NCBI GenBank assembly: GCA_049319825.1
Contig: JBMORT010000002.1
Location: 204,072-268,071 of the forward strand
Origin: Patescibacteria group bacterium
Lineage (GTDB): Bacteria > Patescibacteriota > Patescibacteriia > UBA11705 > DATKZF01
DNA: 64,000 bases
Reading direction: 5' to 3'
The position numbers and the translations under genes were made by a program. Of the stretch, positions 20,688-59,466 are shown piece after piece. How positions within the stretch are numbered: position 1 is the stretch's first letter; every line of letters starts with the position of its first letter. Below the pieces are notes generated by a model. That model made no database searches, had not been told where the DNA came from, and saw only the letters and a program-made list of their open reading frames with translations.

Positions 20688-21677
20688 TTAACACAGTTCG
20701 GTTTTTATCTGGTCCATGGAAAGCAGGTGTTTTCTCGCTCGAGTTAAAGTTTGTTCGATGCGGCATGGAGAAAAGTCCGCTTCGGTGAGAATTTTGGTCA
20801 AATCATCTTCTTCAATGATTGTTCTTGCCAGCATAAAGCGGGCGATTCTGCCGATTTCCGGAATTTTGGTGCCGCTTTTAATAAAGGCATGAAGTATTCT
20901 TTCACCTGGCCAATTTTTTTGTGAAAAAAGCGCGGTAAGAATTTTATCCAGCGACCAATCGCAGTCGCTGAGCGCCTTTAGCAGTCTGGCGTCCTCCCAG
21001 CGTAGCCATTCTGACATTTCCTGCACGATATTATAAGTGCTCCAGCTGTTTGCTTCGAGCGCGGCGATTATTTCAACGTCGTTCCAACCGGACTCCGTCA
21101 AATAGAGCTGCATGCTCTGCTTTGAGGACTTGGTGTCGCAAAAGGCTTTAACTATCCTGGATTTCGTCCAAGCTTGTTTCTCCAGAGTCATGACGATCAG
21201 GTGTCCTTTGAATATCTTTAACAGTAAGGCGACGATTTCATCGTCATCCCACTTCAAAGCGATCAGCGCGGTGGCGGTGCGTTCCAATATCGCGGTGTTT
21301 TTTTGGATGCCCAGCTCAAACAGCTGTCTCGAGTTTTCAGATAATAAACCGTGATTGAGAAAGAACAATGCTCTGGAAAAAATACTTACCCCGTATTTTT
21401 TTTCGGGAAAATAATCTCTGAGCGCTTCGATGATTAAATCATCCGGCAGGCCGGCGGCGATCAAATTCGCCACGGTGGCAATGTGAAGCAGCCGGATTTT
21501 TCTCCGCATTGACTCTTTTTCTATTTCCGAATTGGGCCATTGCGGTTGCTTGTTTCGGTCGGAGCCGAATATTTTATTAAGCAGCGCGACATTAATTCGA
21601 GCGCGGCTTTCCGGGTGTCCGATCAGTAAATCGCGGTATCTTTGCAGCAGCATTGGCAGGTCGCTGTTTGGTGTCAT
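20688..21677 (-). CDS. hypothetical alpha-helical repeat protein
   Basis: ~6 internal ~35-aa repeats (W/D-x-DD-x-I-I-x-A-L..); RBS GGAGGGGG upstream of ATG. Confidence 0.5.
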   Translation of the reverse strand: MTPNSDLPMLLQRYRDLLIGHPESRARINVALLNKIFGSDRNKQPQWPNSEIEKESMRRKIRLLHIATVANLIAAGLPDDLIIEALRDYFPEKKYGVSIFSRALFFLNHGLLSENSRQLFELGIQKNTAILERTATALIALKWDDDEIVALLLKIFKGHLIVMTLEKQAWTKSRIVKAFCDTKSSKQSMQLYLTESGWNDVEIIAALEANSWSTYNIVQEMSEWLRWEDARLLKALSDCDWSLDKILTALFSQKNWPGERILHAFIKSGTKIPEIGRIARFMLARTIIEEDDLTKILTEADFSPCRIEQTLTRARKHLLSMDQIKTELC

Positions 21678-21735
21678 GCTTCCCCCTCCAAGCGGAAAGA
21701 ACTTATTTATGATAACAATTTTTTGAAAAAAATAA

Positions 21736-21766
21736 AAGCGGCGATTTGCTTGGCCAATCGCCGCTT
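21736..21766 (-). terminator. terminator hairpin AAGCGGCGATT-tgcttggcc-AATCGCCGCTT (copy 1)
   Basis: 11-bp perfect stem overlapping the stop codon of gene 21765..22364, followed on minus strand by U-run. Confidence 0.55.
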
Positions 21767-22364
21767 ATGCAATTATTCTTTTTCTATTATAATGGATGGC
21801 CATGACGGCTACAGAGCCATTACCCAAAATGCCATTGACAAGCGGATATAGCAGTTGCGCGATGTCGCCTGACCAGTTTGAAATGATAACCGCCAAAGTC
21901 AGGCAGTAAGAGATGACTCCTAAAATCCATGGAGGCGATTTTTCTTTCAGCCTGCCGCTTTTAAGCCCCACCCAAATGGGAACAAAGGAAACGAACAAAA
22001 TTATTTGGAGCATCAGATTAGCCAGTCTGGCATTACCAGTGGTTAGCCAAAGGATTCCGACTGCGGCAGCCAGCGCCAGGCAGAAATAATCAAGCTTGCT
22101 GAATTCGACAAATTTACGTTTGATGTAAGAATACACAAAGACAATGATGGTCATGGCCGCGCAAAATATTGCCAATAAGCATTTTTCCCAACTGATGACC
22201 ATGATTGCAAAGGTGACTGCGTTCATGCTCATTACTACCAGCAAAATAATCCATGTTGCCGGATTGGGAATGGATTCCCCTTTCGAGATTTGCTTTAGAT
22301 AAATAAAATAAACCGGAATAATCAGGAGGCTTGACACCAGCCCGAGCATTTCCGATGCGGTCAT
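21765..22364 (-). CDS. hypothetical polytopic membrane protein (about 6 TM)
   Basis: start chosen at MTASEM with AAGGGAGA RBS 5 nt upstream; hydrophobicity pattern only. Confidence 0.5.
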   Translation of the reverse strand: MTASEMLGLVSSLLIIPVYFIYLKQISKGESIPNPATWIILLVVMSMNAVTFAIMVISWEKCLLAIFCAAMTIIVFVYSYIKRKFVEFSKLDYFCLALAAAVGILWLTTGNARLANLMLQIILFVSFVPIWVGLKSGRLKEKSPPWILGVISYCLTLAVIISNWSGDIAQLLYPLVNGILGNGSVAVMAIHYNRKRIIA

Positions 22365-22427
22365 TTTATTCTCCCTTCGTCTGCAGTTCAAAAAATTATA
22401 TTTTAAATAATGGATTTTGTCAATTAA

Positions 22428-22458
22428 AAGCGGCGATTTGCTTGGCCAATCGCCGCTT
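22428..22458 (-). terminator. terminator hairpin, identical copy 2 of the 21736..21766 element
   Basis: 35-nt identity to copy 1 including full stem-loop. Confidence 0.5.
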
Positions 22459-22495
22459 AAAAATTATTCCTTTGATTTGTTTTCTGTTTTTCGAA

Positions 22496-22704: not shown

Positions 22705-22750
22705 TTTTCTAAAGTTAAAAAGAGGCGGTCTGGAATGTCCAAACCGCCTC
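22705..22750 (-). terminator. intrinsic terminator GAGGCGGT..ACCGCCTC + U-run
   Basis: 8-bp stem downstream of stop of 22772..23317 gene. Confidence 0.55.
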
Positions 22751-22771
22751 GCGTCACTGTGCTTGCAGCGG

Positions 22772-23317
22772 CTACTTCGTCGAGGACGAGCGCTTGCTCT
22801 CGGCGAGCGCCTCGGGCTCCTGCTCCAAGATATTGATCTTGGTGATGGCCTCGAAGGCGGGCTCGAGCTGCTTGAGCAGGGAGGCCGCCACTTCTCGGCC
22901 CGTGCCCTGCATGCAGTATTCGGCCACCTTGGCCACGGTGTTCGAGTTCGGGATGAATCCGTACTGAGTGGAGAGGTAGTGGACCGCGGTGGCGACGACC
23001 AGCGGTTCGAGCATGCGGCCGAGCTCGGTGTCGAAGTAACCGGGGTAGCTCTTGCCGAGCGCGCGTCGGACAATGCCGATGAGCAAATGGCAGGCCTCCT
23101 CGGACCCGGCGATCTTGGCGCCGTGCTTGAGGTTGTCCGTGACGGCCTGGAAAGTCTTGTTCGTCTTGTCGGTCATGGGGGGTCCTCCTTGGGTGGTTGA
23201 GCTGATGGCGGTATCAGCCCGTTTAGTTTCGGTCTGGACTTCGCTGTCAGGGTCTGGATCGCTCGCGGATTCTGGAATGCCCAGAACTTGCGCGATCTTC
23301 TTTTTCACGTTGGACAT
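22772..23317 (-). CDS. hypothetical protein on GC-rich (foreign-composition) island
   Basis: GC clearly ~60% versus ~42% flanks; strong AGGAGG RBS 6 nt before ATG (MSNVKKK); no family recognised. Confidence 0.55.
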   Translation of the reverse strand: MSNVKKKIAQVLGIPESASDPDPDSEVQTETKRADTAISSTTQGGPPMTDKTNKTFQAVTDNLKHGAKIAGSEEACHLLIGIVRRALGKSYPGYFDTELGRMLEPLVVATAVHYLSTQYGFIPNSNTVAKVAEYCMQGTGREVAASLLKQLEPAFEAITKINILEQEPEALAESKRSSSTK

Positions 23318-23421
23318 GCTGACCTCCTTTCGCTTCATGCCCCCAGCTTGATGGGCATAAAAACCGGCGATTTAACTCAGTAGACTCCTTCTCCACATGT
23401 TTTTGTTTGCTCGAGTTATCC

Positions 23422-24102
23422 TTAACCTTTTTGCATTTCCAAGTTTTCTACCAGAAGCATTTCAACAAACCTATCGATTACATCCGCTCTTGATTCAGTA
23501 TCTTCGCCGAGAGCCCTCAGCTCGGAAATCACGTCCGCATCGGTGATTTCTGATTCCTCGAACCAATCAGACTTTTTCCATTTCTCGTCAGCCGCCTGGC
23601 CCATGAAATCCAAATTGTTGCATGTCGGACAGGCGGCAAAAATGGATGGCCCGAGTCTTAGCACGACTCTATGGGAATCAAAATGACAGCAATTGGCCGT
23701 GAAATGCAAAGGATTTTCAATGCCCGATTCGATTTCCATATTAATTTCTTTAAAGACATTTCCCCAATCTGACATTTTTCTGAGTTTGGAATCAAGTTTA
23801 TCCTCGGAGACAGTCCATTTATTCACAAAGTTTTCGTCATCTCTTTGAACGTCTTCCAATTCATAGATCAGACCGCATGCAGGGCAATACGTGTAAAACA
23901 TTTTTGCGAATTCAAGAATCACCCAGTATGATGTCTGGGGATCATTACATTTTTGGCTTCGGCAGCGCCGAAAAGTAAAGAGCTTCACATCCTTGGGCAT
24001 ACTTGCCTTGAATTTTCTTTCGCGGGTTTTATGGAAGAATGCACAACGATCCCTGTCATGATTGTATGATTTGGCATATAGTGTTCCGAATGGCTCTGTC
24101 AT
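23422..24102 (-). CDS. hypothetical protein with two tandem CxxC-type zinc-ribbon-like halves
   Basis: internal duplication each with C..C and CP(A/T)C motifs. Confidence 0.5.
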   Translation of the reverse strand: MTEPFGTLYAKSYNHDRDRCAFFHKTRERKFKASMPKDVKLFTFRRCRSQKCNDPQTSYWVILEFAKMFYTYCPACGLIYELEDVQRDDENFVNKWTVSEDKLDSKLRKMSDWGNVFKEINMEIESGIENPLHFTANCCHFDSHRVVLRLGPSIFAACPTCNNLDFMGQAADEKWKKSDWFEESEITDADVISELRALGEDTESRADVIDRFVEMLLVENLEMQKG

Positions 24103-24285
24103 TTCTCTCTTCCCCCTTGGCGCTAATCAGCGCGTCTCGCGGTTGTCAACGAACAATTAACAAGCCATTATAACAAGAAAAAAATGAATATTCAATAATC
24201 TGTCAATAAAAAATATTATTATTTTAAATTCAATTCACTAAATTTAGATAAAAAAATAAAAATTAAAAAATTCTGTTCGTAAAAA

Positions 24286-24314
24286 TTGACAGATATTTAT
24301 CAATTTGCTATAAT
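24286..24314 (+). promoter_or_regulatory. sigma70-type promoter TTGACA-17-TATAAT, probably leaderless transcript
   Basis: perfect hexamers; -10 ends 6 nt before ATG at 24321. Confidence 0.6.
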
Positions 24315-24320
24315 AAAAGC

Positions 24321-25133
24321 ATGGAAACCAAAGCGGAACAAATCAAACTAATCAGCGAGCTGAGAAAAGCCGGATTAAAGCAAAAAGAAGCGGAAATTTA
24401 TGCCGCGCTTTTGGAATTGGGCGGCGCTTATCCTTCAAAAATAGCAGAATACACGAAATTAAACCGAAGCACTGTATATAAAATTTTGGAGGAGTTATCT
24501 ATCAAAGGTTTAGTATCAGAGGTTCAAAAGGGGAAAAAGCTATATTATCAGATTGAAAAGCCGGATAAATTGGTTCGCTTCGCAAAAGAGCAAATTAAAT
24601 TAGCGGAAAACAGATTGGAAAACGCGGAAAAAATATTGCCTGATATTGAAGGTTTATTTACTCTAACGCCGAATAAACCCAAAGTCAGTTTTTATGAAGA
24701 ACTTGACGGAGTTTTAAAAGTGTATGCGGATCATGTTGATGTCAAGGAATCATATGAACAGCTGGCATTTTCAAACACAGCCGGGGTCATTGAATTCATG
24801 CCATTAAAATTTAGAGAAGATTATGTAAAGAAAAAAGAGAAAATTTCCATCCCTTCCAGAGGAATTGTTCCTGACACGGAAAAGGATATTGATTATAACA
24901 AAACCGTATATAGAAATGTTAATAAAGGAATATGGCCGAAGTTGCGCTGGATACCGGCTAAAATGTTTCCCTATAAAGGTGAAATTACCATTTATGAAAA
25001 TAATAAAGTCTCTTTGGTTAATTTCAGCGAGCCGACGATGATTGGGGTAATTATTGAAGATAAAGACATCCACGACATGATGGCCATGATTTTCGAGCTA
25101 GCCTGGGCCGGAGCGAAGGAATTTGGAAATTAA
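24321..25133 (+). CDS. TrmB-family winged-helix transcriptional regulator
   Basis: N-terminal TrmB-type wHTH (KEAEIYAALLELGGAYPSKIAEYTKLNRSTVYKILEEL..KGLV). Confidence 0.7.
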   Translation: METKAEQIKLISELRKAGLKQKEAEIYAALLELGGAYPSKIAEYTKLNRSTVYKILEELSIKGLVSEVQKGKKLYYQIEKPDKLVRFAKEQIKLAENRLENAEKILPDIEGLFTLTPNKPKVSFYEELDGVLKVYADHVDVKESYEQLAFSNTAGVIEFMPLKFREDYVKKKEKISIPSRGIVPDTEKDIDYNKTVYRNVNKGIWPKLRWIPAKMFPYKGEITIYENNKVSLVNFSEPTMIGVIIEDKDIHDMMAMIFELAWAGAKEFGN

Positions 25134-28523: not shown

Positions 28524-29618
28524 ATGTTAAATAAAAAGAAAAAATTAGTTTTTGAAAAATCAATTACTAGGGACTGGCCGCTTTTTATCGTACAAATGTT
28601 GCATAAAGGTTTTACAAAAGAATTTGAAAAACAATTTAAATTTAGATATTTAGAAGTTTTATTTGATTGTTTTTCTGACCATTTAGATATATATAGAGCA
28701 CCTATTGAACATATTGAGAAAATGAGAGCCTTTATTTTAAATAATCTGCGCAGAAATCCCAATTTCATAAGAGAGGTTGCTAAAAAGTTAATAGATTATT
28801 TTGAAAATTTTAAAGATATAATTCATGAAATTGATAATAAAAGTTTAGTTGTAACTTCAAATAAAGAATTGTCACAAATTATAAAAGCTTTTATTAAAGC
28901 ACATCAAGAGTTGGAACCTTGTTTTGTTATGATGTTTTGGTTTCCAATACAAATGGAAAATCATCAAAATAAAGAAAAATATAAGCCAGATATTGATATC
29001 GCGGCAAAAATGCGGGCAAAGACCGAGAAAGTTGGCCCAGAGGGTGATAGAATTGCTAGAAAACTTTCTGAAGAAGTCAGCAGAAGAATGTTTGGGAATA
29101 AGGATTTTGCCAAATTTATTTCTTTAAAAGAAACGCACGCTTTTTTAACAAAGAATAAAAAAGTTAATAAAAAGATTATTGAAAAAAGAAAAAAGGGTTT
29201 TATATACGGAGCTTTAGGAATTAAATATATAAAATTGTCAGACTATGCAAAACTTGAAGGGTTGGAAGTAAAAACAACATTAGCAGACATAAACAATAAT
29301 TACATTAAAGGTTCAATTGCTTACAAAGGATATGTGAAAGGTAAAGTGAGAATTATTATATCAAAGAAAAATATTAAAACCCTGAAAAATGGTGAAATTT
29401 TGGTCACCGCAATGACAACACCTGAATTTGTCCCAGCAATGAAAAAAGCGGCGGCAATTATTACAGATGAAGGCGGCATCACCTGCCACGCGGCGATTGT
29501 CGCTAGAGAATTGAAAATTCCGTGCGTGATCGGCACTAAGGTCGCCACCAAAGTGCTAAAGGATGGCGACCAAGTAGAGGTTGACGCGACCAAGGGGATT
29601 GTCAGGATTTTAAAATAA
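28524..29618 (+). CDS. PEP-utilizing-enzyme mobile domain protein with different N-terminal domain (paralog 2)
   Basis: same C-terminal swivel domain; 32-nt stretch identical at DNA level to paralog 1. Confidence 0.7.
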
Positions 29619-41911: not shown

Positions 41912-41987
41912 TGGTAGCGGGGAGGGGACTCGAACCCCTGACCTCCAGGTTATGGGCCTGGCGAGCTGCCAACTGCTCTACCCCGCG
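41912..41987 (-). tRNA. tRNA-Met (CAU), initiator-type
   Basis: cloverleaf with anticodon loop CCCAUAA, A11:U24, mismatched 1:72 (C x U), encoded CCA. Confidence 0.8.
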
Positions 41988-42059
41988 ATAAAAAAAATAA
42001 TGTGGCTGTGCCATTCGAAGCGCACGCAATCAATGCGATAATTCAGTATATTCCTGTCG

Positions 42060-42079
42060 TTCTTCGCTGGCGCGAAGAA
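42060..42079 (-). other. tRNA 3'-trailer hairpin TTCTTCGC-tggc-GCGAAGAA abutting tRNA 3' end
   Basis: 8-bp stem ends 1 nt before CCA of tRNA 42080..42156. Confidence 0.5.
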
Positions 42080-42156
42080 TGGTAGCAGGGGCGGGGATCG
42101 AACCCGCGACCTGAGGGTTATGATTCCTCCGCTCTAGCCAACTGAGCTACCCTGCC
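42080..42156 (-). tRNA. tRNA with CAU anticodon (elongator Met or Ile2-lysidine)
   Basis: cloverleaf, loop AUCAUAA, C11:G24, encoded CCA. Confidence 0.75.
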
Positions 42157-46438: not shown

Positions 46439-46470
46439 AAGACCGAGAGTGTTTTCTCGGTCTTTTTTTT
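46439..46470. terminator. bidirectional terminator AAGACCGAGA-gtgtt-TTCTCGGTCTT + T9
   Basis: 10-bp stem between convergent genes. Confidence 0.6.
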
Positions 46471-47162
46471 TAGTTTGAATAGTTGAAGACCCGGATTTGG
46501 GTCCTCGCCTTGGCCTTTACCAGCAGTCTGGTGGCCATGGGATTGACCCACATCGGGTCGGTCTTGCCGTTCCAGACGAAGATTCGTCCGGCTTTGGCAA
46601 CGGGCAGTTCCGCCCAGTTGCCGATGTTTTTTTCGTCCGGCACCATCACCATGATGGGCGCGGTGTAGTCGAAGATCTTGGCCAGCACCGGCTTGCCCAT
46701 CCTGATTTCGTAGATGGGGCCGGGCTCGATGTCGGCCTCGAAATCGGGCCGCCAGGCCATGGCCACGGCCGCCGGGCGGTCATTGTCCGTGATCGGACTG
46801 CTGATGCTCAAACCGAACACGCGGTTGAGCATCCCCGGCAGCGCGTAGTTTAGAACCACCAGCGCGCCAATGACGATGGCGATGAATACCACCATCGCCT
46901 TGGCCCAGAACCAGTCTCTGGGCTTTGGCTTTTTGGCCTCGGGCTTTTTGGCCGTTTTCTTGGCATCGGCCTCGGACTTGTCGTCCGTTTTTTGGGTCTG
47001 CGCGTCCGCCTTCGGCCAGGCGCCCAGACACACGAAAAGTCCTGCCACTGCGGCTCCGATCACTGCCCAGACCGCGTAGCCCGGGATGACCTTGAGCCCG
47101 ATGGCCGAGCCGATCAGCGCGACCAGCAGTCCGAACAGAATTGCCATTACCTTCCTTTTCAT
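46470..47162 (-). CDS. membrane protein co-transcribed with SPFH protein (possible NfeD-like partner), GC-rich
   Basis: 3 TM plus Lys-rich linker plus C-terminal soluble domain; GC ~58%. Confidence 0.5.
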   Translation of the reverse strand: MKRKVMAILFGLLVALIGSAIGLKVIPGYAVWAVIGAAVAGLFVCLGAWPKADAQTQKTDDKSEADAKKTAKKPEAKKPKPRDWFWAKAMVVFIAIVIGALVVLNYALPGMLNRVFGLSISSPITDNDRPAAVAMAWRPDFEADIEPGPIYEIRMGKPVLAKIFDYTAPIMVMVPDEKNIGNWAELPVAKAGRIFVWNGKTDPMWVNPMATRLLVKAKARTQIRVFNYSN

Positions 47163-47172
47163 TAAAAACCTC

Positions 47173-48189
47173 CTAGAGGTTGAAGAGTTTCGCGGGATCG
47201 ATCAGGTTCACATTGCCCTGTCCGCCCTTGCCCCAGGCGGCCAGCGCCTGCCACTTGAGCTGCTCAAGCTTGAATCGAGCCAGCTCTGCGCCGGTGACTC
47301 CCAGTTTCCCGAGAGCCTCGGCCTCCTTTTCGAGCGCCTTGACCTGCGCCTGGCCTTCGAGCGCGCTCAGCTCTTCTTTACGGCGAGCGACCTCGATGCT
47401 GGCCTGAATGTCGACCAGCGCAGCCTGACGCTTCTGATGCTCGACCACGACCGCCTTGAGGCTTTCCTCGACCTCGGGGTCGAGGTTGACGTCCTCGATC
47501 AGCACATCAAGGATCTCGATGCCCCACTGATTCTGGATGTCGATCTCATCGGTGGTCGGGTTCAGCAGTCCCTCCCTCATCAGGCGGCTGTTTTCGAGCC
47601 AGTCGATGGCCAGCAGGTTCTCGAACTCGACGTTGATGTCGAGCACGATCTTTTGGAACAACCTGCGGATCAGGTCGTCCACCAGTTCCCGGGCCTTGGT
47701 TTCTTCGGCTCCGCCAATCAGATTTTGCTTGACCTGCAGAAATCTTTCGGCGTTCCGAATGAGGTTCCCCTTCGTCTGGAACCTCAGGTTGAGCGAGATC
47801 TCTTTGGCCACCACCTTGACCGGAGTCTTGATGGCTTTGCCGTCGCTGCCGACCACCGTGTACTGGAGATCGGCTTTGACATCTCGCACATTTAGCGAGA
47901 ATAATTCCGTGGACTGGACGATGCGCTCTTCCCACCAGGGGAAGTAGATCCTCCAGCCCGGGTGTTTCACCGCGATCAGGCCACCGAAACTGACGATAAA
48001 CCAGATTTCGGTGGGTTTGACCATCTCGACCCTGATCATGTTCATGACCAGGATCGCGGCCGCGATGATCGTGCTGCCGATGATCAGCATGTCGCTGACA
48101 TCGATCGGCCGCATGACCCACAGCAAGATCATCTCGCACAAAACAAACAGCCAGAGCAGGGCGAATTTCAACATGCTCGAATAATTCAT
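47173..48189 (-). CDS. SPFH/band-7 (stomatin/flotillin-like) family protein, GC-rich
   Basis: N-terminal TM then SPFH core then long coiled coil; start at second ATG (48189) preceded by GGGAGG. Confidence 0.75.
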   Translation of the reverse strand: MNYSSMLKFALLWLFVLCEMILLWVMRPIDVSDMLIIGSTIIAAAILVMNMIRVEMVKPTEIWFIVSFGGLIAVKHPGWRIYFPWWEERIVQSTELFSLNVRDVKADLQYTVVGSDGKAIKTPVKVVAKEISLNLRFQTKGNLIRNAERFLQVKQNLIGGAEETKARELVDDLIRRLFQKIVLDINVEFENLLAIDWLENSRLMREGLLNPTTDEIDIQNQWGIEILDVLIEDVNLDPEVEESLKAVVVEHQKRQAALVDIQASIEVARRKEELSALEGQAQVKALEKEAEALGKLGVTGAELARFKLEQLKWQALAAWGKGGQGNVNLIDPAKLFNL

Positions 48190-48231
48190 CTGATTCCTCC
48201 CGATTGGTTTAATTTCATCCAAATTCATATT

Positions 48232-48827: not shown

Positions 48828-50276
48828 TTATGTGCTGGGAATTATTTTTTTCCATGTTGATTTTTTAAAACTGCTGATATGCGTTTTGGCCGTTCGTGTT
48901 TTGACGAATTTAAGCCACTGGGGATTTGGACCCTTGCGGTGCTTGTCGATGATGATGTCAACGACATCGCCGTTTTTAAGCTTGGCGTCGAGCGGCACCT
49001 GCTGATCGTTAACGCTAGCGCTGCCGCATTTATTGCCGATATCCGAATGTATTTCATAGGCGAAATCAACCGGGGTGGCGCCTTCGGGCAGATCGATAAC
49101 GTCGCCTTTTGGTGTGAAAACAAAAATTCTATTTTGGAAAAAATCTATTTTGACCGTTTCTAAAAAATTTTCATCGTCTTTAATTTCTTTTTGCCATTTC
49201 GCCAACTCATCGACCCAGCCCAAATCTTCAATTTTTGTTTTTCCTCCCTTTTCTTTATATTTCCAGTGTGAGGCGATGCCGAATTCCGCTTGCTCGTGCA
49301 TCTGCGGCGTGCGAATTTGGAATTCAACCTGCTCGTGATTGTCGCCGAATACGGTGGTATGCAGCGATTGATAACCGTTCGGCTTTGGCTGGGCGATATA
49401 ATCTTTTATTCTGCCTTTAACCGGCTTCCATAAGCTGTGAATAATGCCCAGCGCCGCGTAGCAATCGGCAATATCCTTAACGATGATTCGCGCCGCCACC
49501 AAATCGTAGATGTGATTGATGTCTTTTTCGTTTTTTATCAATTTGCGGTAAAGGCTGTAATAATGCTTCGTGCGGCTGTACACGTCCAGATAGTGGACGT
49601 TATTTTCTTTCAATTTCCGTTTTAATTTATTAAGCATTGATTCCAGCGCGCGTTCTTTGATCGGCAGCCCCTTTTTTATTAAACCCTCCACCCAAATATA
49701 TTCATCGGGAAAACCGTATTTGAACGCCTCATCCTCCAGCTTGCCTTGCAATTCTCCCATGCCCAGCCGATTGGCGATCGGCGCGTAGATTTCCAGCACT
49801 TCCATGGCGATGCGTTTTTGTTTATCCGCCGGCAGCGCGTAGAGCGTTCTTAAATTGTGAAGCCGATCGGCGAATTTGATGATGATCACCCGAATGTCTT
49901 TGGCCATGGCCACGAACATTTTGCGCAAATTTTCAACATAGCGTTTCATGCCGCGGTATTTGACGGTGCCGAGCTTGGTAATGCCATCGACCATGTCGGC
50001 GACGTCAGCGCCGAAATTTTGTTTGATGTCTTCCAGCGTGTATTCGGTGTCTTCCGGAACATCATGAAGCAAGCCGGCGATTATTATATTTTGATTGACC
50101 CCAAGATCGGCGAGGTTTTGGGCGGTGGCCAGCGCGTGATCAATATAGTCGACACCGGTGGCGCGGCGCTGGCCGGCGTGCGCTGTTTTCGCAAATTCAT
50201 AAGCCAGCTCGATCAGCGCCAGATCGGCTTTGGGGTCATACTTTTTAACGGTTGTCAGCAATTTGCGAATGGTCAT
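48828..50276 (-). CDS. rel: Rel/SpoT-family (p)ppGpp synthetase/hydrolase (HD intact) with TGS domain, no ACT
   Basis: HD motif LLHDVPEDT, synthetase YQSLHTTV..RTPQMH, TGS TPKGDVIDLP.GATP.DFAY. Confidence 0.85.
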   Translation of the reverse strand: MTIRKLLTTVKKYDPKADLALIELAYEFAKTAHAGQRRATGVDYIDHALATAQNLADLGVNQNIIIAGLLHDVPEDTEYTLEDIKQNFGADVADMVDGITKLGTVKYRGMKRYVENLRKMFVAMAKDIRVIIIKFADRLHNLRTLYALPADKQKRIAMEVLEIYAPIANRLGMGELQGKLEDEAFKYGFPDEYIWVEGLIKKGLPIKERALESMLNKLKRKLKENNVHYLDVYSRTKHYYSLYRKLIKNEKDINHIYDLVAARIIVKDIADCYAALGIIHSLWKPVKGRIKDYIAQPKPNGYQSLHTTVFGDNHEQVEFQIRTPQMHEQAEFGIASHWKYKEKGGKTKIEDLGWVDELAKWQKEIKDDENFLETVKIDFFQNRIFVFTPKGDVIDLPEGATPVDFAYEIHSDIGNKCGSASVNDQQVPLDAKLKNGDVVDIIIDKHRKGPNPQWLKFVKTRTAKTHISSFKKSTWKKIIPST

Positions 50277-50283
50277 AATTATA

Positions 50284-51912
50284 TTATAGCAGATCTTTAG
50301 TTGAAGCGTATTTAGTTATCATCTTTTTGGCCAAATTTGATTTCACGAAATTCAGCCAAGCCGGATCAGGGCCTTCGGAATTGATGTCCGGAATGATTTC
50401 CACCACGTCCTCATTTTCCAGCTTGCGACTGAGCTCGGCCGGTTGATTGTTTACCAGCGCGAACTTGCAGAAATGTCCCAGATCCGAATGGATATGATAG
50501 GCAAAATCCACCGGCGTGGCCCCCTGCGGCAGGGATATAATATCGCCCTTTGGCGTGTACACGTAAATTTTTTCTTGGAATATTTTGCTCAGCTCCTCGT
50601 CCCAGATATTTTTTTGGGAAAATAGGCTGCTGGCTCGGAGTAAACGCTTGGCCCAGTCGTTTTCCACGGCCGCGCCATCTTTATAGAATAAATGAGCGGC
50701 GACGCCATATTGAGCTTGGTGATGCATGTCATGGGTTCTAATTTGAAATTCGGTCAGACGATTGCCCGGGCCGATGACTGTCGTGTGCAAAGTTTGATAG
50801 CCGTTTTCTTTCGGCGCGGCAATATAATCCTTGATTCTCTTGTGCACCGGCGGCCAGAGGCCGTGAATGATGCGCATCATCAAGTAGCATTCATCGACGG
50901 TATTAACGATGACGCGCAGTGCGAACACATCGTAAATTTCATTGAATGTTTTTTGTTTGGTTTTCATTTTTTGGTAGATGCTGTAGTAGTGCTTAAAACG
51001 GCCGTTGACTTCACAGTTGATGTTGTTCTTTTCCGCTTCTCGCTGCACGGCCTTTTTCAGTTTATTAATGTATTTATCCCTGATTTTTTTATTCTCTTTG
51101 CCGAATTTGTCGGCGATTTTTTGATATTCTTTGGGCTGCAGGATGCGGAATGCGTGATCCTCCAGCTGCCAGCGTACGCGCCAAATGCCCAGCATGTTGG
51201 CGATGGGTGCTAAAATTTCCTTGGCTTGTTTGGCCAAAAGATATTTGTCTTCAAGCGCGATTTTCTCGTCGTTGCCTAGCGAATCGAGCATCGAGGCCAT
51301 CTTGATGAAAATAACGCGAACATCTTGCGCCATTACCAACATCAGTTCTTTGATGTTGTTGTTGAAACTTTTCGTTTTATTGGCCAAGTGATTTATTTTT
51401 CTGTATTTTTTTAATATTTCCAGCGCGTGATTGCCCAGCTCCTTCTTTATCATCGGATCAAAATCATCGATTTCGTTTTCCAAATCGACATGATGGAGCA
51501 TGCTGGCGGCGATAGTGATCGCGTCAACCTTCATCGTGCTCAACAGCTGCGAAGTGTTGACTGAGTGCCAAAAAAACATTCGGTGACGTTTTTGATCCTG
51601 GCCGTTAAAATATTGATCAATGTAATCCAGCACGATTACAATTTTATAATTGTCTCTGCCAATGATTTTTTCTATTTCCGATCTTTTTTCAGGAGAGACT
51701 TGGTTGATTTTAAAAATCGCTGATGAGGCGATAAAAAAAGGAGAAGCATTGGCCATTGCCAGCTTCTCCGCCAGTATTAATTGTTTTTCGTAGGTTTCTT
51801 TGGTGATTATGTTTGCGTTTAGGCATTTTTCCAAATAATTCAAAGCTTCGCCCAATATTTCCGCATCAGGCCTATTTTTTTCGATGAATTCCTGGAGCGT
51901 TTTATTACCCAT
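50284..51912 (-). CDS. RelA-like paralog with degenerate HD domain, synthetase and TGS
   Basis: HD replaced by MLHHVDLE; synthetase YQTLHTTV..RTHDMH; TGS present. Confidence 0.8.
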   Translation of the reverse strand: MGNKTLQEFIEKNRPDAEILGEALNYLEKCLNANIITKETYEKQLILAEKLAMANASPFFIASSAIFKINQVSPEKRSEIEKIIGRDNYKIVIVLDYIDQYFNGQDQKRHRMFFWHSVNTSQLLSTMKVDAITIAASMLHHVDLENEIDDFDPMIKKELGNHALEILKKYRKINHLANKTKSFNNNIKELMLVMAQDVRVIFIKMASMLDSLGNDEKIALEDKYLLAKQAKEILAPIANMLGIWRVRWQLEDHAFRILQPKEYQKIADKFGKENKKIRDKYINKLKKAVQREAEKNNINCEVNGRFKHYYSIYQKMKTKQKTFNEIYDVFALRVIVNTVDECYLMMRIIHGLWPPVHKRIKDYIAAPKENGYQTLHTTVIGPGNRLTEFQIRTHDMHHQAQYGVAAHLFYKDGAAVENDWAKRLLRASSLFSQKNIWDEELSKIFQEKIYVYTPKGDIISLPQGATPVDFAYHIHSDLGHFCKFALVNNQPAELSRKLENEDVVEIIPDINSEGPDPAWLNFVKSNLAKKMITKYASTKDLL

Positions 51913-58860: not shown

Positions 58861-59073
58861 AGAAAGTCAATTCAGAGGAATGGGAGAATGAATTTTTTAA
58901 CAATACGCGCATGATTTTGCTTATCGGCCGGGTCAGTGCTAGCAGCCCCTCCTCTGCTGCCGAGTACCTGCGTTGGTAAGCAATATCATGAGCGGTATTG
59001 TCCGATAGAATCCCCGGATCCTCGAGATAGCGGGGATTCATTGTATACGACAAACTCACGGAAGGAGTTAACT

Positions 59074-59427
59074 ATGTCCAAGTTGGTAGTTCTGGCTCTT
59101 CTGGTCGGAGTCGGTGGCTGTACGCTGAGCGCGGGTCCGCCGGTTCTCGTCAATACCCCGCACTACGCCTACCATTCGGGCGGCCTGTGCAATGACGGGT
59201 TCTACTACGACGGCTATTACTGCCGTGCGGCCCGGTTCGCCCATGTCTTCTACCGTCCACACCCCGAGTACGGCCGCGGCTACTACCACGGCTACTCGGG
59301 CCATGCCTACTACCGCCATCATCCCTACCGCCGGCCAACCGTCGTCGTCACCGATCACCAGCAGCACCGTAAAGTAAAGGTGGTCAAGGTCAAGCGGCCC
59401 CGCCATCGTCCCCATCGCTATCGCTAA
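59074..59427 (+). CDS. small Tyr/His/Arg-rich lipoprotein on GC-rich island
   Basis: GGAGG RBS, signal peptide with lipobox-like VGGC, GC ~62%. Confidence 0.5.
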   Translation: MSKLVVLALLVGVGGCTLSAGPPVLVNTPHYAYHSGGLCNDGFYYDGYYCRAARFAHVFYRPHPEYGRGYYHGYSGHAYYRHHPYRRPTVVVTDHQQHRKVKVVKVKRPRHRPHRYR

Positions 59428-59438
59428 TCCAAAAAAAA

Positions 59439-59466
59439 GAGCGCTGAAGCCATGCTTTCAGCGCTC
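59439..59466. terminator. bidirectional terminator GAGCGCTGAA..TTCAGCGCTC flanked by A8 / T-run
   Basis: 10-bp stem between lipoprotein gene and pth. Confidence 0.6.

What the first reader, a model, noticed from the sequence alone, without database searches (positions are those of the whole stretch)
22705..23340. Single-gene GC-rich island with strong AGGAGG RBS (foreign composition)
The segment from about 22760 to 23330 is visibly ~60% GC with GC-rich third codon positions, against ~42% in both flanks. It encodes a 181-aa protein of no recognisable family. It is preceded by a canonical AGGAGG SD with 6-nt spacing and followed by a clean terminator. This is a compositional signature of recent horizontal acquisition from a high-GC donor. 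The window contains two more such islands.
Basis: seen in the sequence. Interest (0 to 1): 0.6.

Follow-up and report, generated by a model that had tools for sequence, protein, structure and literature searches.

The report
Old phage-derived gene staying GC-rich
The GC-rich single gene is real, but it is not a recent import: it is a phage-type gene with two start sites that related Patescibacteria genomes keep at the same spot, and it has stayed GC-rich in all of them, which passive decay of foreign DNA does not explain.

Summary
Observation confirmed. The 181-aa gene (22772-23317, minus strand) has GC 0.61 and GC3 0.83, against about 0.43-0.46 and 0.45-0.55 in its neighbours. It has an AGGAGG ribosome-binding site and a 13-bp terminator.

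'Recent acquisition' is not supported.
- Orthologues sit at the same locus (TrmB regulator, Zn-ribbon gene, this gene) in four other Patescibacteria lineages.
- All four are GC-elevated: +0.12 to +0.21 GC and +0.19 to +0.42 GC3.
- Their synonymous sites are about as diverged as those of the neighbouring TrmB gene.
- On the window and L001 branches, AT-to-GC and GC-to-AT synonymous changes balance, whereas neutral amelioration predicts 81-88% GC-to-AT.

The elevation is concentrated in a 134-aa core (GC3 0.91). This core begins at a second, in-frame ATG with its own AGGAGG, conserved in all five lineages.

The core belongs to an uncurated family of at least 174 representatives. In all of them it is a C-terminal helical domain behind variable N-termini, nearly always preceded by an internal Met. 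Members sit in early-gene arrays of large phage-like contigs. The core is remotely homologous to the C-terminus of the toxic phage T5 pre-early protein gp011.

Best reading: an anciently captured phage gene whose GC-rich codon usage is actively maintained. The cause and the function are unproven.

The parts
22772..23317 (-). Gene X, long form (181 aa): a short N-terminal helix and a polar linker (codons 1-47, GC3 0.60), then the conserved core
   Evidence: ORF and translation. Identical protein P0001 called independently. Composition. Orthologues aligned.
22772..23176 (-). Gene X, short form or core (134 aa) from the in-frame ATG 23176..23174. GC 0.63, GC3 0.91. All-helical domain (AF2 pLDDT 92).
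   Evidence: The internal ATG is conserved in all five lineages. In L021 the gene starts there and the upstream frame carries stops. Structure model. GC3 step.
23323..23328 (-). Shine-Dalgarno 1: AGGAGG, 5 nt before ATG 23317
   Evidence: Read from the sequence.
23184..23189 (-). Shine-Dalgarno 2: in-frame AGGAGG, 7 nt before the internal ATG 23176
   Evidence: Sequence. Equivalent AAGGAG-like motifs lie 6-9 nt before the same ATG in L001, L002, L004 and L021.
22722..22750 (-). Intrinsic terminator: 13-bp stem, 3-nt loop, then TTTTT
23422..24102 (-). Upstream Zn-ribbon (CxxC-rich) gene, 226 aa, host-like composition (GC 0.43). It is the conserved partner of X and probably lies in the same transcript.
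   Evidence: Homologues lie directly upstream of X in L001 (1-nt stop/start overlap), L002 and L021. No promoter hit between this gene and X.
24167..24195 (-). Promoter-like site (TTGAAT-17-TATAAT with extended TG) upstream of the Zn-ribbon gene; candidate promoter of the Zn-ribbon-X unit
   Evidence: consensus match only.
24321..25133 (+). Divergently transcribed TrmB-family regulator with a perfect consensus promoter at 24286-24314. Conserved neighbour of the Zn-ribbon-X pair wherever the upstream DNA is available (the L004 contig starts inside X).
   Evidence: Pfam PF01978. Promoter. Synteny.
23357..23373 (.). Half copy (15 of 17 nt) of the 38-nt terminator hairpin element found whole at 21730-21767 and 22422-22459. 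It lies between the Zn-ribbon gene and X.
   Evidence: Its meaning is uncertain: possibly a decayed terminator at the boundary of the GC-rich segment.

Best explanation
X is a resident, protein-coding gene of phage ancestry. An ancestor of a small Patescibacteria clade captured it.

The gene now sits in a conserved unit. A TrmB-type regulator is transcribed divergently from a two-gene transcript, Zn-ribbon protein then X, which ends in a strong terminator.

X is read from two in-frame starts, each with its own strong Shine-Dalgarno. This should give a 181-aa form and a 134-aa form consisting only of the conserved helical domain.

That domain is the C-terminal module of a wide, uncurated phage family. 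The family includes the toxic, nucleoid-disturbing pre-early protein gp011 of phage T5. Family members typically carry the same nested start.

The high GC is a codon-usage property of the core: C- and G-ending codons even at two-fold sites. It has persisted in every lineage while synonymous sites turned over. It therefore behaves as a gene-specific equilibrium, held by selection on synonymous sites (expression level or mRNA stability) or by GC-biased repair, and not as an un-ameliorated remnant.

Shown: the anatomy, the synteny, the persistence and the homology.
Inferred: that both forms are made, what the protein does, and which force holds the GC.
For: Synteny and GC offset in five lineages (core versus pooled flanks):
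- window: GC 0.630 / GC3 0.911 versus 0.458 / 0.531
- L001: 0.611 / 0.870 versus 0.441 / 0.518
- L021: 0.582 / 0.780 versus 0.371 / 0.359
- L004: 0.517 / 0.605 versus 0.347 / 0.289
- L002: 0.469 / 0.483 versus 0.355 / 0.293

Age:
- Four-fold-site identity between X orthologues is 0.36-0.71, against 0.26-0.48 expected at saturation.
- For TrmB it is 0.21-0.42, against 0.22-0.26 expected.

Stationarity:
- Polarised synonymous changes on the window and L001 branches are 7 AT-to-GC versus 5 GC-to-AT (4 versus 4 with L021 alone as outgroup).
- Neutral decay toward background predicts 81-88% GC-to-AT (P = 1.5e-4 to 3e-3).

Coding status: GC3 far above GC2, 53 invariant residues, and third-position variation.

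Second start:
- SD plus ATG is conserved in all five lineages; L021 uses only this start.
- Family-wide, 114 of 117 long members have a Met 4-35 residues before the core, against 37% expected.
- That Met is preceded by residues with purine-rich codons (P = 3e-8).
- SD-like motifs are seen in 4 of 5 remote loci.
- The GC3 step of 0.60 to 0.91 lies at the internal start.

Family:
- 174 remote homologues; the domain is always C-terminal.
- Contexts look like early-gene arrays of large phage-like contigs.
- The AF2 model has pLDDT 92.
- Foldseek matches T5-like phage proteins with probability 1.0.
- hhalign of A2 against A4 gives 90% probability and E 1.7e-6.
- T5.011 carries the same C-terminal domain.
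- T5.011 is toxic and gives a nucleoid phenotype (bioRxiv 10.64898/2026.04.02.716235).
Against: - There are no expression or proteome data, so neither the two isoforms nor a high or low expression level is shown.
- The only ribosomal protein gene in the window (L19) has background codon usage, so the GC-rich codon usage is not this genome's visible 'highly expressed' usage.
- Three other GC-rich genes in the window use the same codons. At least one of them (SPFH) has no close homologue elsewhere and looks like a true recent import. The codon usage could therefore simply be 'foreign'.
- GC elevation is not family-wide. It is absent from AT-rich phage contexts: L011, L019 and T5.011.
- The log-odds shift of GC3 is not constant (0.8-2.2), and the L002 and L004 copies show strong net GC-to-AT flux.
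- The X and Zn-ribbon trees disagree with the TrmB tree (quartet sites 11:3:0 versus 14:4:3), so inheritance was not purely vertical.
- The substitution counts are small and polarised by parsimony.
Confidence: 0.55

Rival explanations
1. Ancient transfer from a high-GC phage or host, followed only by slow neutral amelioration. The high GC would be a fading remnant with no force maintaining it.
For: - The nearest outgroup homologues lie in GC 0.56-0.68 phage-like contigs, with gene GC3 of 0.91-0.94 (0.97-0.975 in the core).
- The ancestral third-position state reconstructs as G/C at most sites.
- The copies in the AT-rich L002 and L004 genomes show 14-17 versus 2 and 6-10 versus 2 GC-to-AT versus AT-to-GC changes.
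- X GC3 falls as host GC3 falls.
Against: - Flanking four-fold sites are at or near saturation between lineages (TrmB 0.21-0.42 versus 0.22-0.26 expected), yet X keeps +0.19 to +0.42 GC3 everywhere.
- The window and L001 branches show balanced flux where 81-88% GC-to-AT is expected.
- The L021 copy has GC3 0.78 in a genome whose flanking genes have GC3 about 0.36.
Confidence: 0.2
2. Repeated replacement. The chromosomal copy is periodically overwritten, by recombination or GC-biased conversion, with copies that circulate among related Patescibacteria or on a GC-rich mobile element. This would keep it 'young' and GC-rich at a fixed locus.
For: - Gene trees are incongruent: the X core and the Zn-ribbon protein group (window, L001 | L002, L021), whereas TrmB groups (L001, L021 | window, L002).
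- Blocks of 20-30 nt are nearly identical across lineages and could support recombination.
- The same genome has other GC-rich genes that look recently imported.
Against: - No close copy was found in IMG/VR viral contigs, GenBank phages, or anywhere outside the five chromosomal lineages.
- The co-inherited Zn-ribbon partner has host-like composition.
- X synonymous divergence is comparable to that of TrmB.
- The quartet test rests on few sites and one flanking gene.
Confidence: 0.13
3. Recent horizontal acquisition by this genome from a high-GC donor.
For: Strong compositional and codon-usage outlier with sharp, gene-sized boundaries. There is a half terminator element at the upstream boundary.
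Against: - Orthologues with 57-75% core identity lie at the same locus in four other lineages.
- No tRNA gene or flanking direct repeats were found; the flanking genes with a family match are housekeeping, and none is a recombinase.
- No donor-like close homologue exists among 5.8 billion proteins.
Confidence: 0.05
4. Artefact: a chimeric contig, or a GC-rich structured RNA mistaken for an ORF.
For: GC-rich islands in AT-richer genomes are often RNA genes. The mRNA folds slightly better than shuffles (z = -2.6, terminator included).
Against: - An independent assembly and four other genomes reproduce the junctions.
- There is no Rfam match even at E <= 1.
- Strong codon periodicity and protein-level conservation, with 174 protein homologues and a confident fold.
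- The long antisense ORF (22763-23200) is interrupted in L004 and is what high GC3 produces by itself.
Confidence: 0.02

Closest known systems
Phage T5 pre-early protein gp011 (T5.011, NC_005859 6495-7505) and its homologues in Demerecviridae (for example Pantoea phage AAS21 gp199)
   Same: - The C-terminal helical domain of about 100 aa is remotely homologous (hhalign 90%, E 1.7e-6; Foldseek probability 1.0, TM 0.49-0.59).
- The domain is C-terminal, lies behind a polar linker, and is preceded by an in-frame Met with an SD-like stretch.
- The gene has its own strong expression signals and terminator.
   Different: - gp011 is 336 aa with a roughly 200-aa N-terminal domain that X lacks.
- It lies in the first-step-transfer terminal repeat of a virulent phage, not in a bacterial chromosome.
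- It is not GC-elevated (0.399 versus 0.400).
- Its function is unknown beyond toxicity and disturbed nucleoids in E. coli.
Compositionally atypical horizontally acquired genes and their amelioration (Lawrence and Ochman model; from my own knowledge)
   Same: A sharp gene-sized GC and codon-usage anomaly, a plausible foreign (phage) source, and copies in AT-richer hosts that are eroding toward AT.
   Different: - The gene is conserved and syntenic across five lineages.
- The offset persists although neighbouring synonymous sites are saturated.
- No net decay is seen in two lineages.
- No integrase gene, tRNA gene or flanking direct repeats were seen.
Nested in-frame genes that make a long and a short product (lambda C/Nu3, T7 gene 4A/4B, Tn5 transposase/inhibitor; from my own knowledge)
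   Same: There is a second in-frame ATG with its own Shine-Dalgarno inside the ORF, conserved across orthologues and across the wider family.
   Different: The two products are not demonstrated here. In this family the conserved part is the short C-terminal product and the N-terminal parts are unrelated to one another. There is no link to capsid assembly, primase or transposition.
Selection or biased gene conversion favouring G+C at synonymous sites in bacteria (Hildebrand 2010, Hershberg and Petrov 2010, Raghavan 2012, Lassalle 2015; from my own knowledge)
   Same: A directional force toward G/C at synonymous sites opposing an AT-biased background is what the stationarity result implies.
   Different: Those effects are genome-wide and modest. 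Here a single gene, mostly one domain of it, sits 0.19-0.42 above its genome's GC3 in several genomes.

Membership tests
Recently acquired genomic island (horizontal transfer into this genome) | Base composition and codon usage unlike the host's | tested here: met
   GC 0.61 versus 0.45. GC3 0.83 versus about 0.5. Codon choice at two-fold sites has z = 5.5-5.6.
Recently acquired genomic island (horizontal transfer into this genome) | Absent from the same locus in close relatives | tested here: not met
   Orthologues lie next to TrmB and the Zn-ribbon gene in L001, L002 and L021. L004 has X followed by the same DUF4236 gene.
Recently acquired genomic island (horizontal transfer into this genome) | Mobility marks: integrase, tRNA target, flanking direct repeats | tested here: not met
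   There is no tRNA within 18 kb. No repeats flank the gene except a half terminator element at 23357-23373. Neighbours with a family match are housekeeping genes; the rest are unknown, and none matches a recombinase.
T5 gp011-like pre-early proteins (Demerecviridae) | C-terminal helical domain homologous to that of gp011 | tested here: met
   hhalign A2 versus A4: probability 90%, E 1.7e-6, 82 columns. Foldseek hits BFVD models of T5-like phage proteins with probability 1.0. Against a single sequence the signal is weak.
T5 gp011-like pre-early proteins (Demerecviridae) | N-terminal domain of about 200 aa shared by Tequintavirus gp011 homologues | tested here: not met
   X has only a 47-aa extension. 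tblastn with AAS21 gp199 finds 496 phage records, but tblastn with X, P0010, P0013 or P0015 finds no phage.
T5 gp011-like pre-early proteins (Demerecviridae) | Toxic to the host and disturbs the nucleoid when expressed | not testable with these tools
   Known for T5.011 only.
Nested dual-start gene | In-frame internal ATG with its own Shine-Dalgarno, conserved among orthologues | tested here: met
   The motifs AGGAGG, AAGGAGA, CAGGAGA, AAGGAG and AAGGAGGG lie 6-9 nt before the aligned ATG in the five lineages. Family-wide Met enrichment is 114/117 versus 37% expected.
Nested dual-start gene | Two protein products made in the cell | not testable with these tools
   Needs proteomics or ribosome profiling. 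L021, where only the short form can be made, shows that the short form is sufficient.
Structured non-coding RNA | Match to a described RNA family, or structure well beyond chance | tested here: not met
   Rfam gathering and E-value searches are negative. Fold z = -2.6 with the terminator included.
Curated protein families (Pfam, NCBIfam, PHROGs, PADLOC, PDB) | Significant profile, sequence or fold match | tested here: not met

The most novel reading that the evidence does not exclude
A single domesticated phage host-takeover domain has been held at a GC3 far above its genome's for longer than the synonymous saturation time, in several Patescibacteria lineages of different base composition. The force would be gene-specific selection on synonymous sites or GC-biased conversion.

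The same uncurated family, from T5 gp011 to this gene, would be built around a conserved nested start that releases the C-terminal domain as a separate product.

This would be a rare, clean natural case for measuring selection on GC content in one bacterial gene. It would also give a first handle on what T5 gp011 does.
Probability: 0.35. Interest if true: 0.65.

Novelty: new variant of a known kind. Interest (0 to 1): 0.45.

Why it matters
Atypical GC is routinely read as 'recent horizontal transfer'. Here that shortcut fails. The anomaly is as old as the clade and appears to be maintained, so composition-based island callers would mis-date it.

If the maintaining force is selection or biased conversion on one small gene, the five orthologues in hosts of 35-46% GC form a natural experiment on what sets GC at synonymous sites.

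Separately, the work defines an uncurated helical domain family with a conserved internal start and ties it to T5 gp011. That protein is a toxic pre-early protein which 'resists functional predictions'. The internal start suggests a concrete reason why its wild-type gene could not be cloned while a recoded one could.

Tried and rejected
**Searches that found nothing**
- Curated libraries (Pfam, PHROGs, NCBIfam, PADLOC) and PDB sequence searches gave no match for X.
- The first AF2 run, with 5 sequences, was unusable (pLDDT 47). Only the 71-sequence alignment gave a confident model.
- tblastn of X, P0010, P0013 and P0015 against GenBank phages found nothing.
- Viral-contig scans either failed for lack of a conserved stretch or found no relative.

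**Ideas tested and dropped**
- Antisense ORF 22763-23200: it lies in the codon-aligned antisense frame, which high GC3 leaves open, and it is interrupted in L004. Rejected.
- Structured RNA: rejected.
- Alignment folding for covariation was not pursued, because overall synonymous conservation in X is no higher than in TrmB.
- Link between the window's SPFH island and the Band_7 gene near the homologue in L009: no similarity.
- Membrane protein: rejected, since the maximum 19-residue hydropathy is 0.87.
- Zn-ribbon partner as a split-off N-terminal domain of the phage proteins: no similarity.
- Translational selection of the usual kind: not supported, because L19 is background-like. However, the window holds no other highly expressed marker.
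- Defence-system membership: no PADLOC hit.

Full report
**1. What is there**

The GC-rich stretch is one gene on the minus strand. The ORF runs 22772..23338. The start supported by a ribosome-binding site is ATG 23317, with AGGAGG at 23328..23323 and a 5-nt spacer. This gives 181 aa, the same protein an independent gene call produced.

Composition:
- CDS GC is 0.612 (GC1 0.57, GC2 0.44, GC3 0.83).
- The neighbouring genes have GC 0.43-0.46 and GC3 0.45-0.51. The window mean is 0.446.
- Only 0.6% of equally long windows are as GC-rich.

A 13-bp hairpin followed by TTTTT lies about 20 nt after the stop codon.

**2. Genome context**

The window is a chromosomal stretch of a Patescibacteria MAG. 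One of its proteins is identical to an NCBI entry named 'Patescibacteria group bacterium', on a 384,691-bp contig. The window carries housekeeping genes: aminoacyl-tRNA synthetases, RNase J, UvrA, L19, ParAB, TopA and RelA/SpoT.

**3. Not recent, and not an artefact**

A search of 5.8 billion proteins found only four non-identical relatives. Their contigs show the same neighbourhood. A TrmB-type regulator, with AsnRS beyond it, is transcribed divergently from a Zn-ribbon gene followed by X. A 329-aa repeat protein and RluD lie further on.

Counting identical contigs once, there are five lineages: the window, L001, L002, L004 and L021. A separate Logan assembly also reproduces the AsnRS-TrmB-Zn-ribbon-X order for the window's own sequence.

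In every lineage the X core is more GC-rich than the pooled flanking genes:

| Lineage | X core GC / GC3 | Flanks GC / GC3 |
|---|---|---|
| window | 0.630 / 0.911 | 0.458 / 0.531 |
| L001 | 0.611 / 0.870 | 0.441 / 0.518 |
| L021 | 0.582 / 0.780 | 0.371 / 0.359 |
| L004 | 0.517 / 0.605 | 0.347 / 0.289 |
| L002 | 0.469 / 0.483 | 0.355 / 0.293 |

The Zn-ribbon gene directly upstream has host-like composition everywhere. No promoter hit separates it from X, and in L001 its stop overlaps X's start by one base. The anomaly is therefore confined to X.

**4. How old is it, and is it decaying?**

TrmB proteins of these lineages are 69-82% identical. Their four-fold sites are at or near the identity expected at saturation (0.21-0.42 observed versus 0.22-0.26 expected). 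X core four-fold sites are similarly diverged (0.36-0.71 versus 0.26-0.48 expected). X is therefore about as old in these genomes as its neighbours.

If its GC were a fading remnant, third positions should be flowing from G/C to A/T.
- In the AT-rich L002 and L004 genomes they are: 14-17 versus 2, and 6-10 versus 2.
- On the window and L001 branches the polarised synonymous changes are balanced: 7 AT-to-GC versus 5 GC-to-AT, or 4 versus 4 with the GC-rich L021 copy as the only outgroup.
- Neutral decay toward the background predicts 81-88% GC-to-AT (P = 1.5e-4 to 3e-3).

The counts are small and polarised by parsimony. They nonetheless point to a maintained, gene-specific equilibrium in at least these lineages.

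The codon pattern fits a directional pull toward G/C. The genome's own genes use G/C-ending codons in four-fold families (0.66) but A/T-ending codons in two-fold families (C at NNY 0.42; G at Lys/Glu/Gln 0.29). X uses C/G endings throughout (0.84, 0.73, 0.84).

**5. A second start, and where the GC step lies**

An in-frame ATG at 23176 is preceded by another AGGAGG at 23184-23189. The same ATG, with an AAGGAG-like motif 6-9 nt upstream, is present in all five lineages. In L021 the upstream extension carries stop codons and the gene begins at this ATG.

GC3 is 0.60 in the 47-codon extension and 0.91 in the 134-codon core. L001 and L002 show the same step. The conserved, compositionally odd unit is therefore the short form.

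**6. What the protein is**

A profile of the five orthologues finds 174 remote homologues among 1.84 billion representative proteins.
- The matching region is always C-terminal (median tail 4 aa).
- It lies behind N-terminal parts of 0-547 aa. The ten long members scanned have no significant Pfam match.
- In 114 of 117 long members a Met lies 4-35 residues before the core, where 37% is expected from the Met frequency.
- That Met is preceded by Glu/Lys/Gly/Arg-rich residues, which have purine-rich, SD-like codons (P = 3e-8).
- SD-like motifs are visible in four of five remote loci for which DNA is held.

The nested start is thus a family trait.

Members with long contigs sit among dense, co-directional small ORFs. 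These arrays also carry thymidylate synthase, ParB-like, RadC, Ku, NAMPT, DNA methyltransferase, RusA and HNH genes, on contigs of up to about 140-180 kb. They look like early regions of large phages.

With a 71-sequence alignment, AlphaFold gives a confident all-helical model (pLDDT 92; helices 3-43, 51-71, 78-118 and 120-131). No hydrophobic stretch is long enough for a membrane span. No solved structure matches.

Predicted viral structures do match. They are uncharacterised proteins of T5-like phages (probability 1.0, TM 0.49-0.59). I traced the Pantoea phage AAS21 hit to gp199. Its homologues occur in 496 phage records and include T5.011, which lies in the first-step-transfer terminal repeat. 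Profile-profile comparison of the X family with the C-terminal domains of these proteins gives 90% probability and E 1.7e-6.

T5.011 has its own promoter and terminator. It is dispensable in the laboratory but toxic in E. coli, where it gives unevenly stained, poorly segregated nucleoids. The authors say it 'resists functional predictions'. The wild-type gene could not be cloned, whereas a synonymously recoded one could (bioRxiv 10.64898/2026.04.02.716235). An internal start releasing the C-terminal domain (M219 in T5.011) is a testable explanation for that.

**7. How I think it works**

*Shown:* a conserved unit of TrmB-type regulator, Zn-ribbon gene and X, with one promoter-like site and one strong terminator; two SD-ATG pairs in X; a conserved helical core of phage ancestry; and a GC-rich codon usage that persists across lineages.

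*Inferred:*
- The Zn-ribbon gene and X are co-transcribed, possibly under the divergent regulator.
- Ribosomes start at both sites and make a 181-aa and a 134-aa protein.
- The core acts by binding a conserved cellular partner. This follows from the variable N-termini on a constant C-terminus, and by analogy with gp011 the partner may be nucleoid-associated.
- The G/C-ending codons are kept by selection on expression (mRNA stability or translation rate) or by GC-biased repair. I cannot tell which.

Two facts point in opposite directions. Two strong ribosome-binding sites argue for high output. A toxic relative and a non-host codon usage would fit attenuation.

**8. What weakens this reading**

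- GC elevation is not a family trait. It is strong in L009, mild in L018, and absent from AT-rich L011, L019 and T5.011.
- The nearest outgroup members lie in high-GC contigs, so the high GC probably began as a foreign signature.
- The three other GC-rich genes of the window share the codon usage. The SPFH gene has no close homologue elsewhere, so this genome does take up GC-rich DNA.
- The X and Zn-ribbon trees disagree with TrmB. This leaves room for exchange among lineages, although no extrachromosomal close copy was found.

**9. Verdict**

The finding is a variant of a known kind, the compositionally atypical acquired gene. It has three unusual features: long persistence of the anomaly at a syntenic locus, a conserved nested start, and a link to an uncharacterised T5 pre-early protein. 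Its interest is moderate.

Noticed in passing
window 46441-47886 (genes 46470-47162 and 47173-48228, minus strand): This is the second GC-rich island. It holds a 230-aa membrane protein and an SPFH/Band_7 protein, with GC 0.57-0.60, GC3 0.80-0.81 and the same codon usage as X. The SPFH protein has no homologue at E <= 1e-20 other than itself, so unlike X this island may be a genuine lineage-specific import.
   Followed up: partly
window 58921-59466 (ORF 59074-59427, plus strand): This is the third GC-rich island (GC about 0.59). It encodes a small predicted lipoprotein (MSKLVVLALLVGVGGC...) with a Tyr/His/Arg/Pro-rich tail. It has no Pfam, NCBIfam or PHROGs match (tested on the longer 58936-59427 ORF), and no PADLOC or Rfam match.
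   Followed up: partly
window 21730-21767, 22422-22459 and 23357-23373: A 38-nt hairpin element (AAAAGCGGCGATTTGCTTGGCCAATCGCCGCTTA) occurs twice, nearly identically (37 of 38 nt; a 29-nt core is identical). On the minus strand it reads as a terminator after the 208-aa and DUF4236 genes. A half copy (15 of 17 nt) lies between the Zn-ribbon gene and X, at the upstream edge of the GC-rich segment.
   Followed up: partly
window, all genes: The genome's own codon usage is split. Four-fold families end mostly in G/C (0.66), whereas two-fold families end mostly in A/T (C at NNY 0.42; G at Lys/Glu/Gln 0.29). This context dependence is unexplained.
   Followed up: no
window 22395-22423 (minus strand) and 24286-24314 (plus strand): There are two perfect 12-of-12 sigma-70 consensus promoters (TTGACA-17-TATAAT), in front of the 208-aa membrane protein gene and the TrmB-like regulator. 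The region has 11 promoter-like hits, against 4.0 +/- 2.2 in shuffles.
   Followed up: no
window 28524-29618 (plus strand): This gene is an AT-rich outlier (GC 0.313, GC3 0.274; local GC 0.28-0.29). It is the opposite kind of compositional island. It lies among PEP-utilising / PPDK-like genes.
   Followed up: no
window 20688-21677 (minus strand); L001 11661-12650; L002 11893-12867: A 329-aa protein built of repeats of the form W-[DN]-D-x-x-I-[VI]-x-A-L has no Pfam match. It is conserved near X in three lineages at 33-38% identity.
   Followed up: partly
NC_005859 (phage T5) 6495-7505, locus L030: T5.011 carries the same C-terminal domain as X, preceded by an in-frame Met (M219) with AAAGGA upstream (7 nt from the ATG). 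The published failure to clone the wild-type gene, while a recoded version could be cloned, might be due to internal expression of this domain.
   Followed up: partly
window 48828-50276 and 50284-51912 (minus strand); 41912-42156: There are two tandem RelA/SpoT-family genes (HD, RelA_SpoT and TGS domains in each) and two adjacent tRNA-Met(CAT) genes.
   Followed up: no
L002 12998-20396; L001 10733-11057: In the AT-rich relative, the variable region beside X holds an AAA_5 (MoxR-like) ATPase gene, an adjacent uncharacterised 564-aa gene, and a reverse transcriptase/RNase H gene. L001 has a pair of 90-nt repeats (91% identical) just downstream of X.
   Followed up: no
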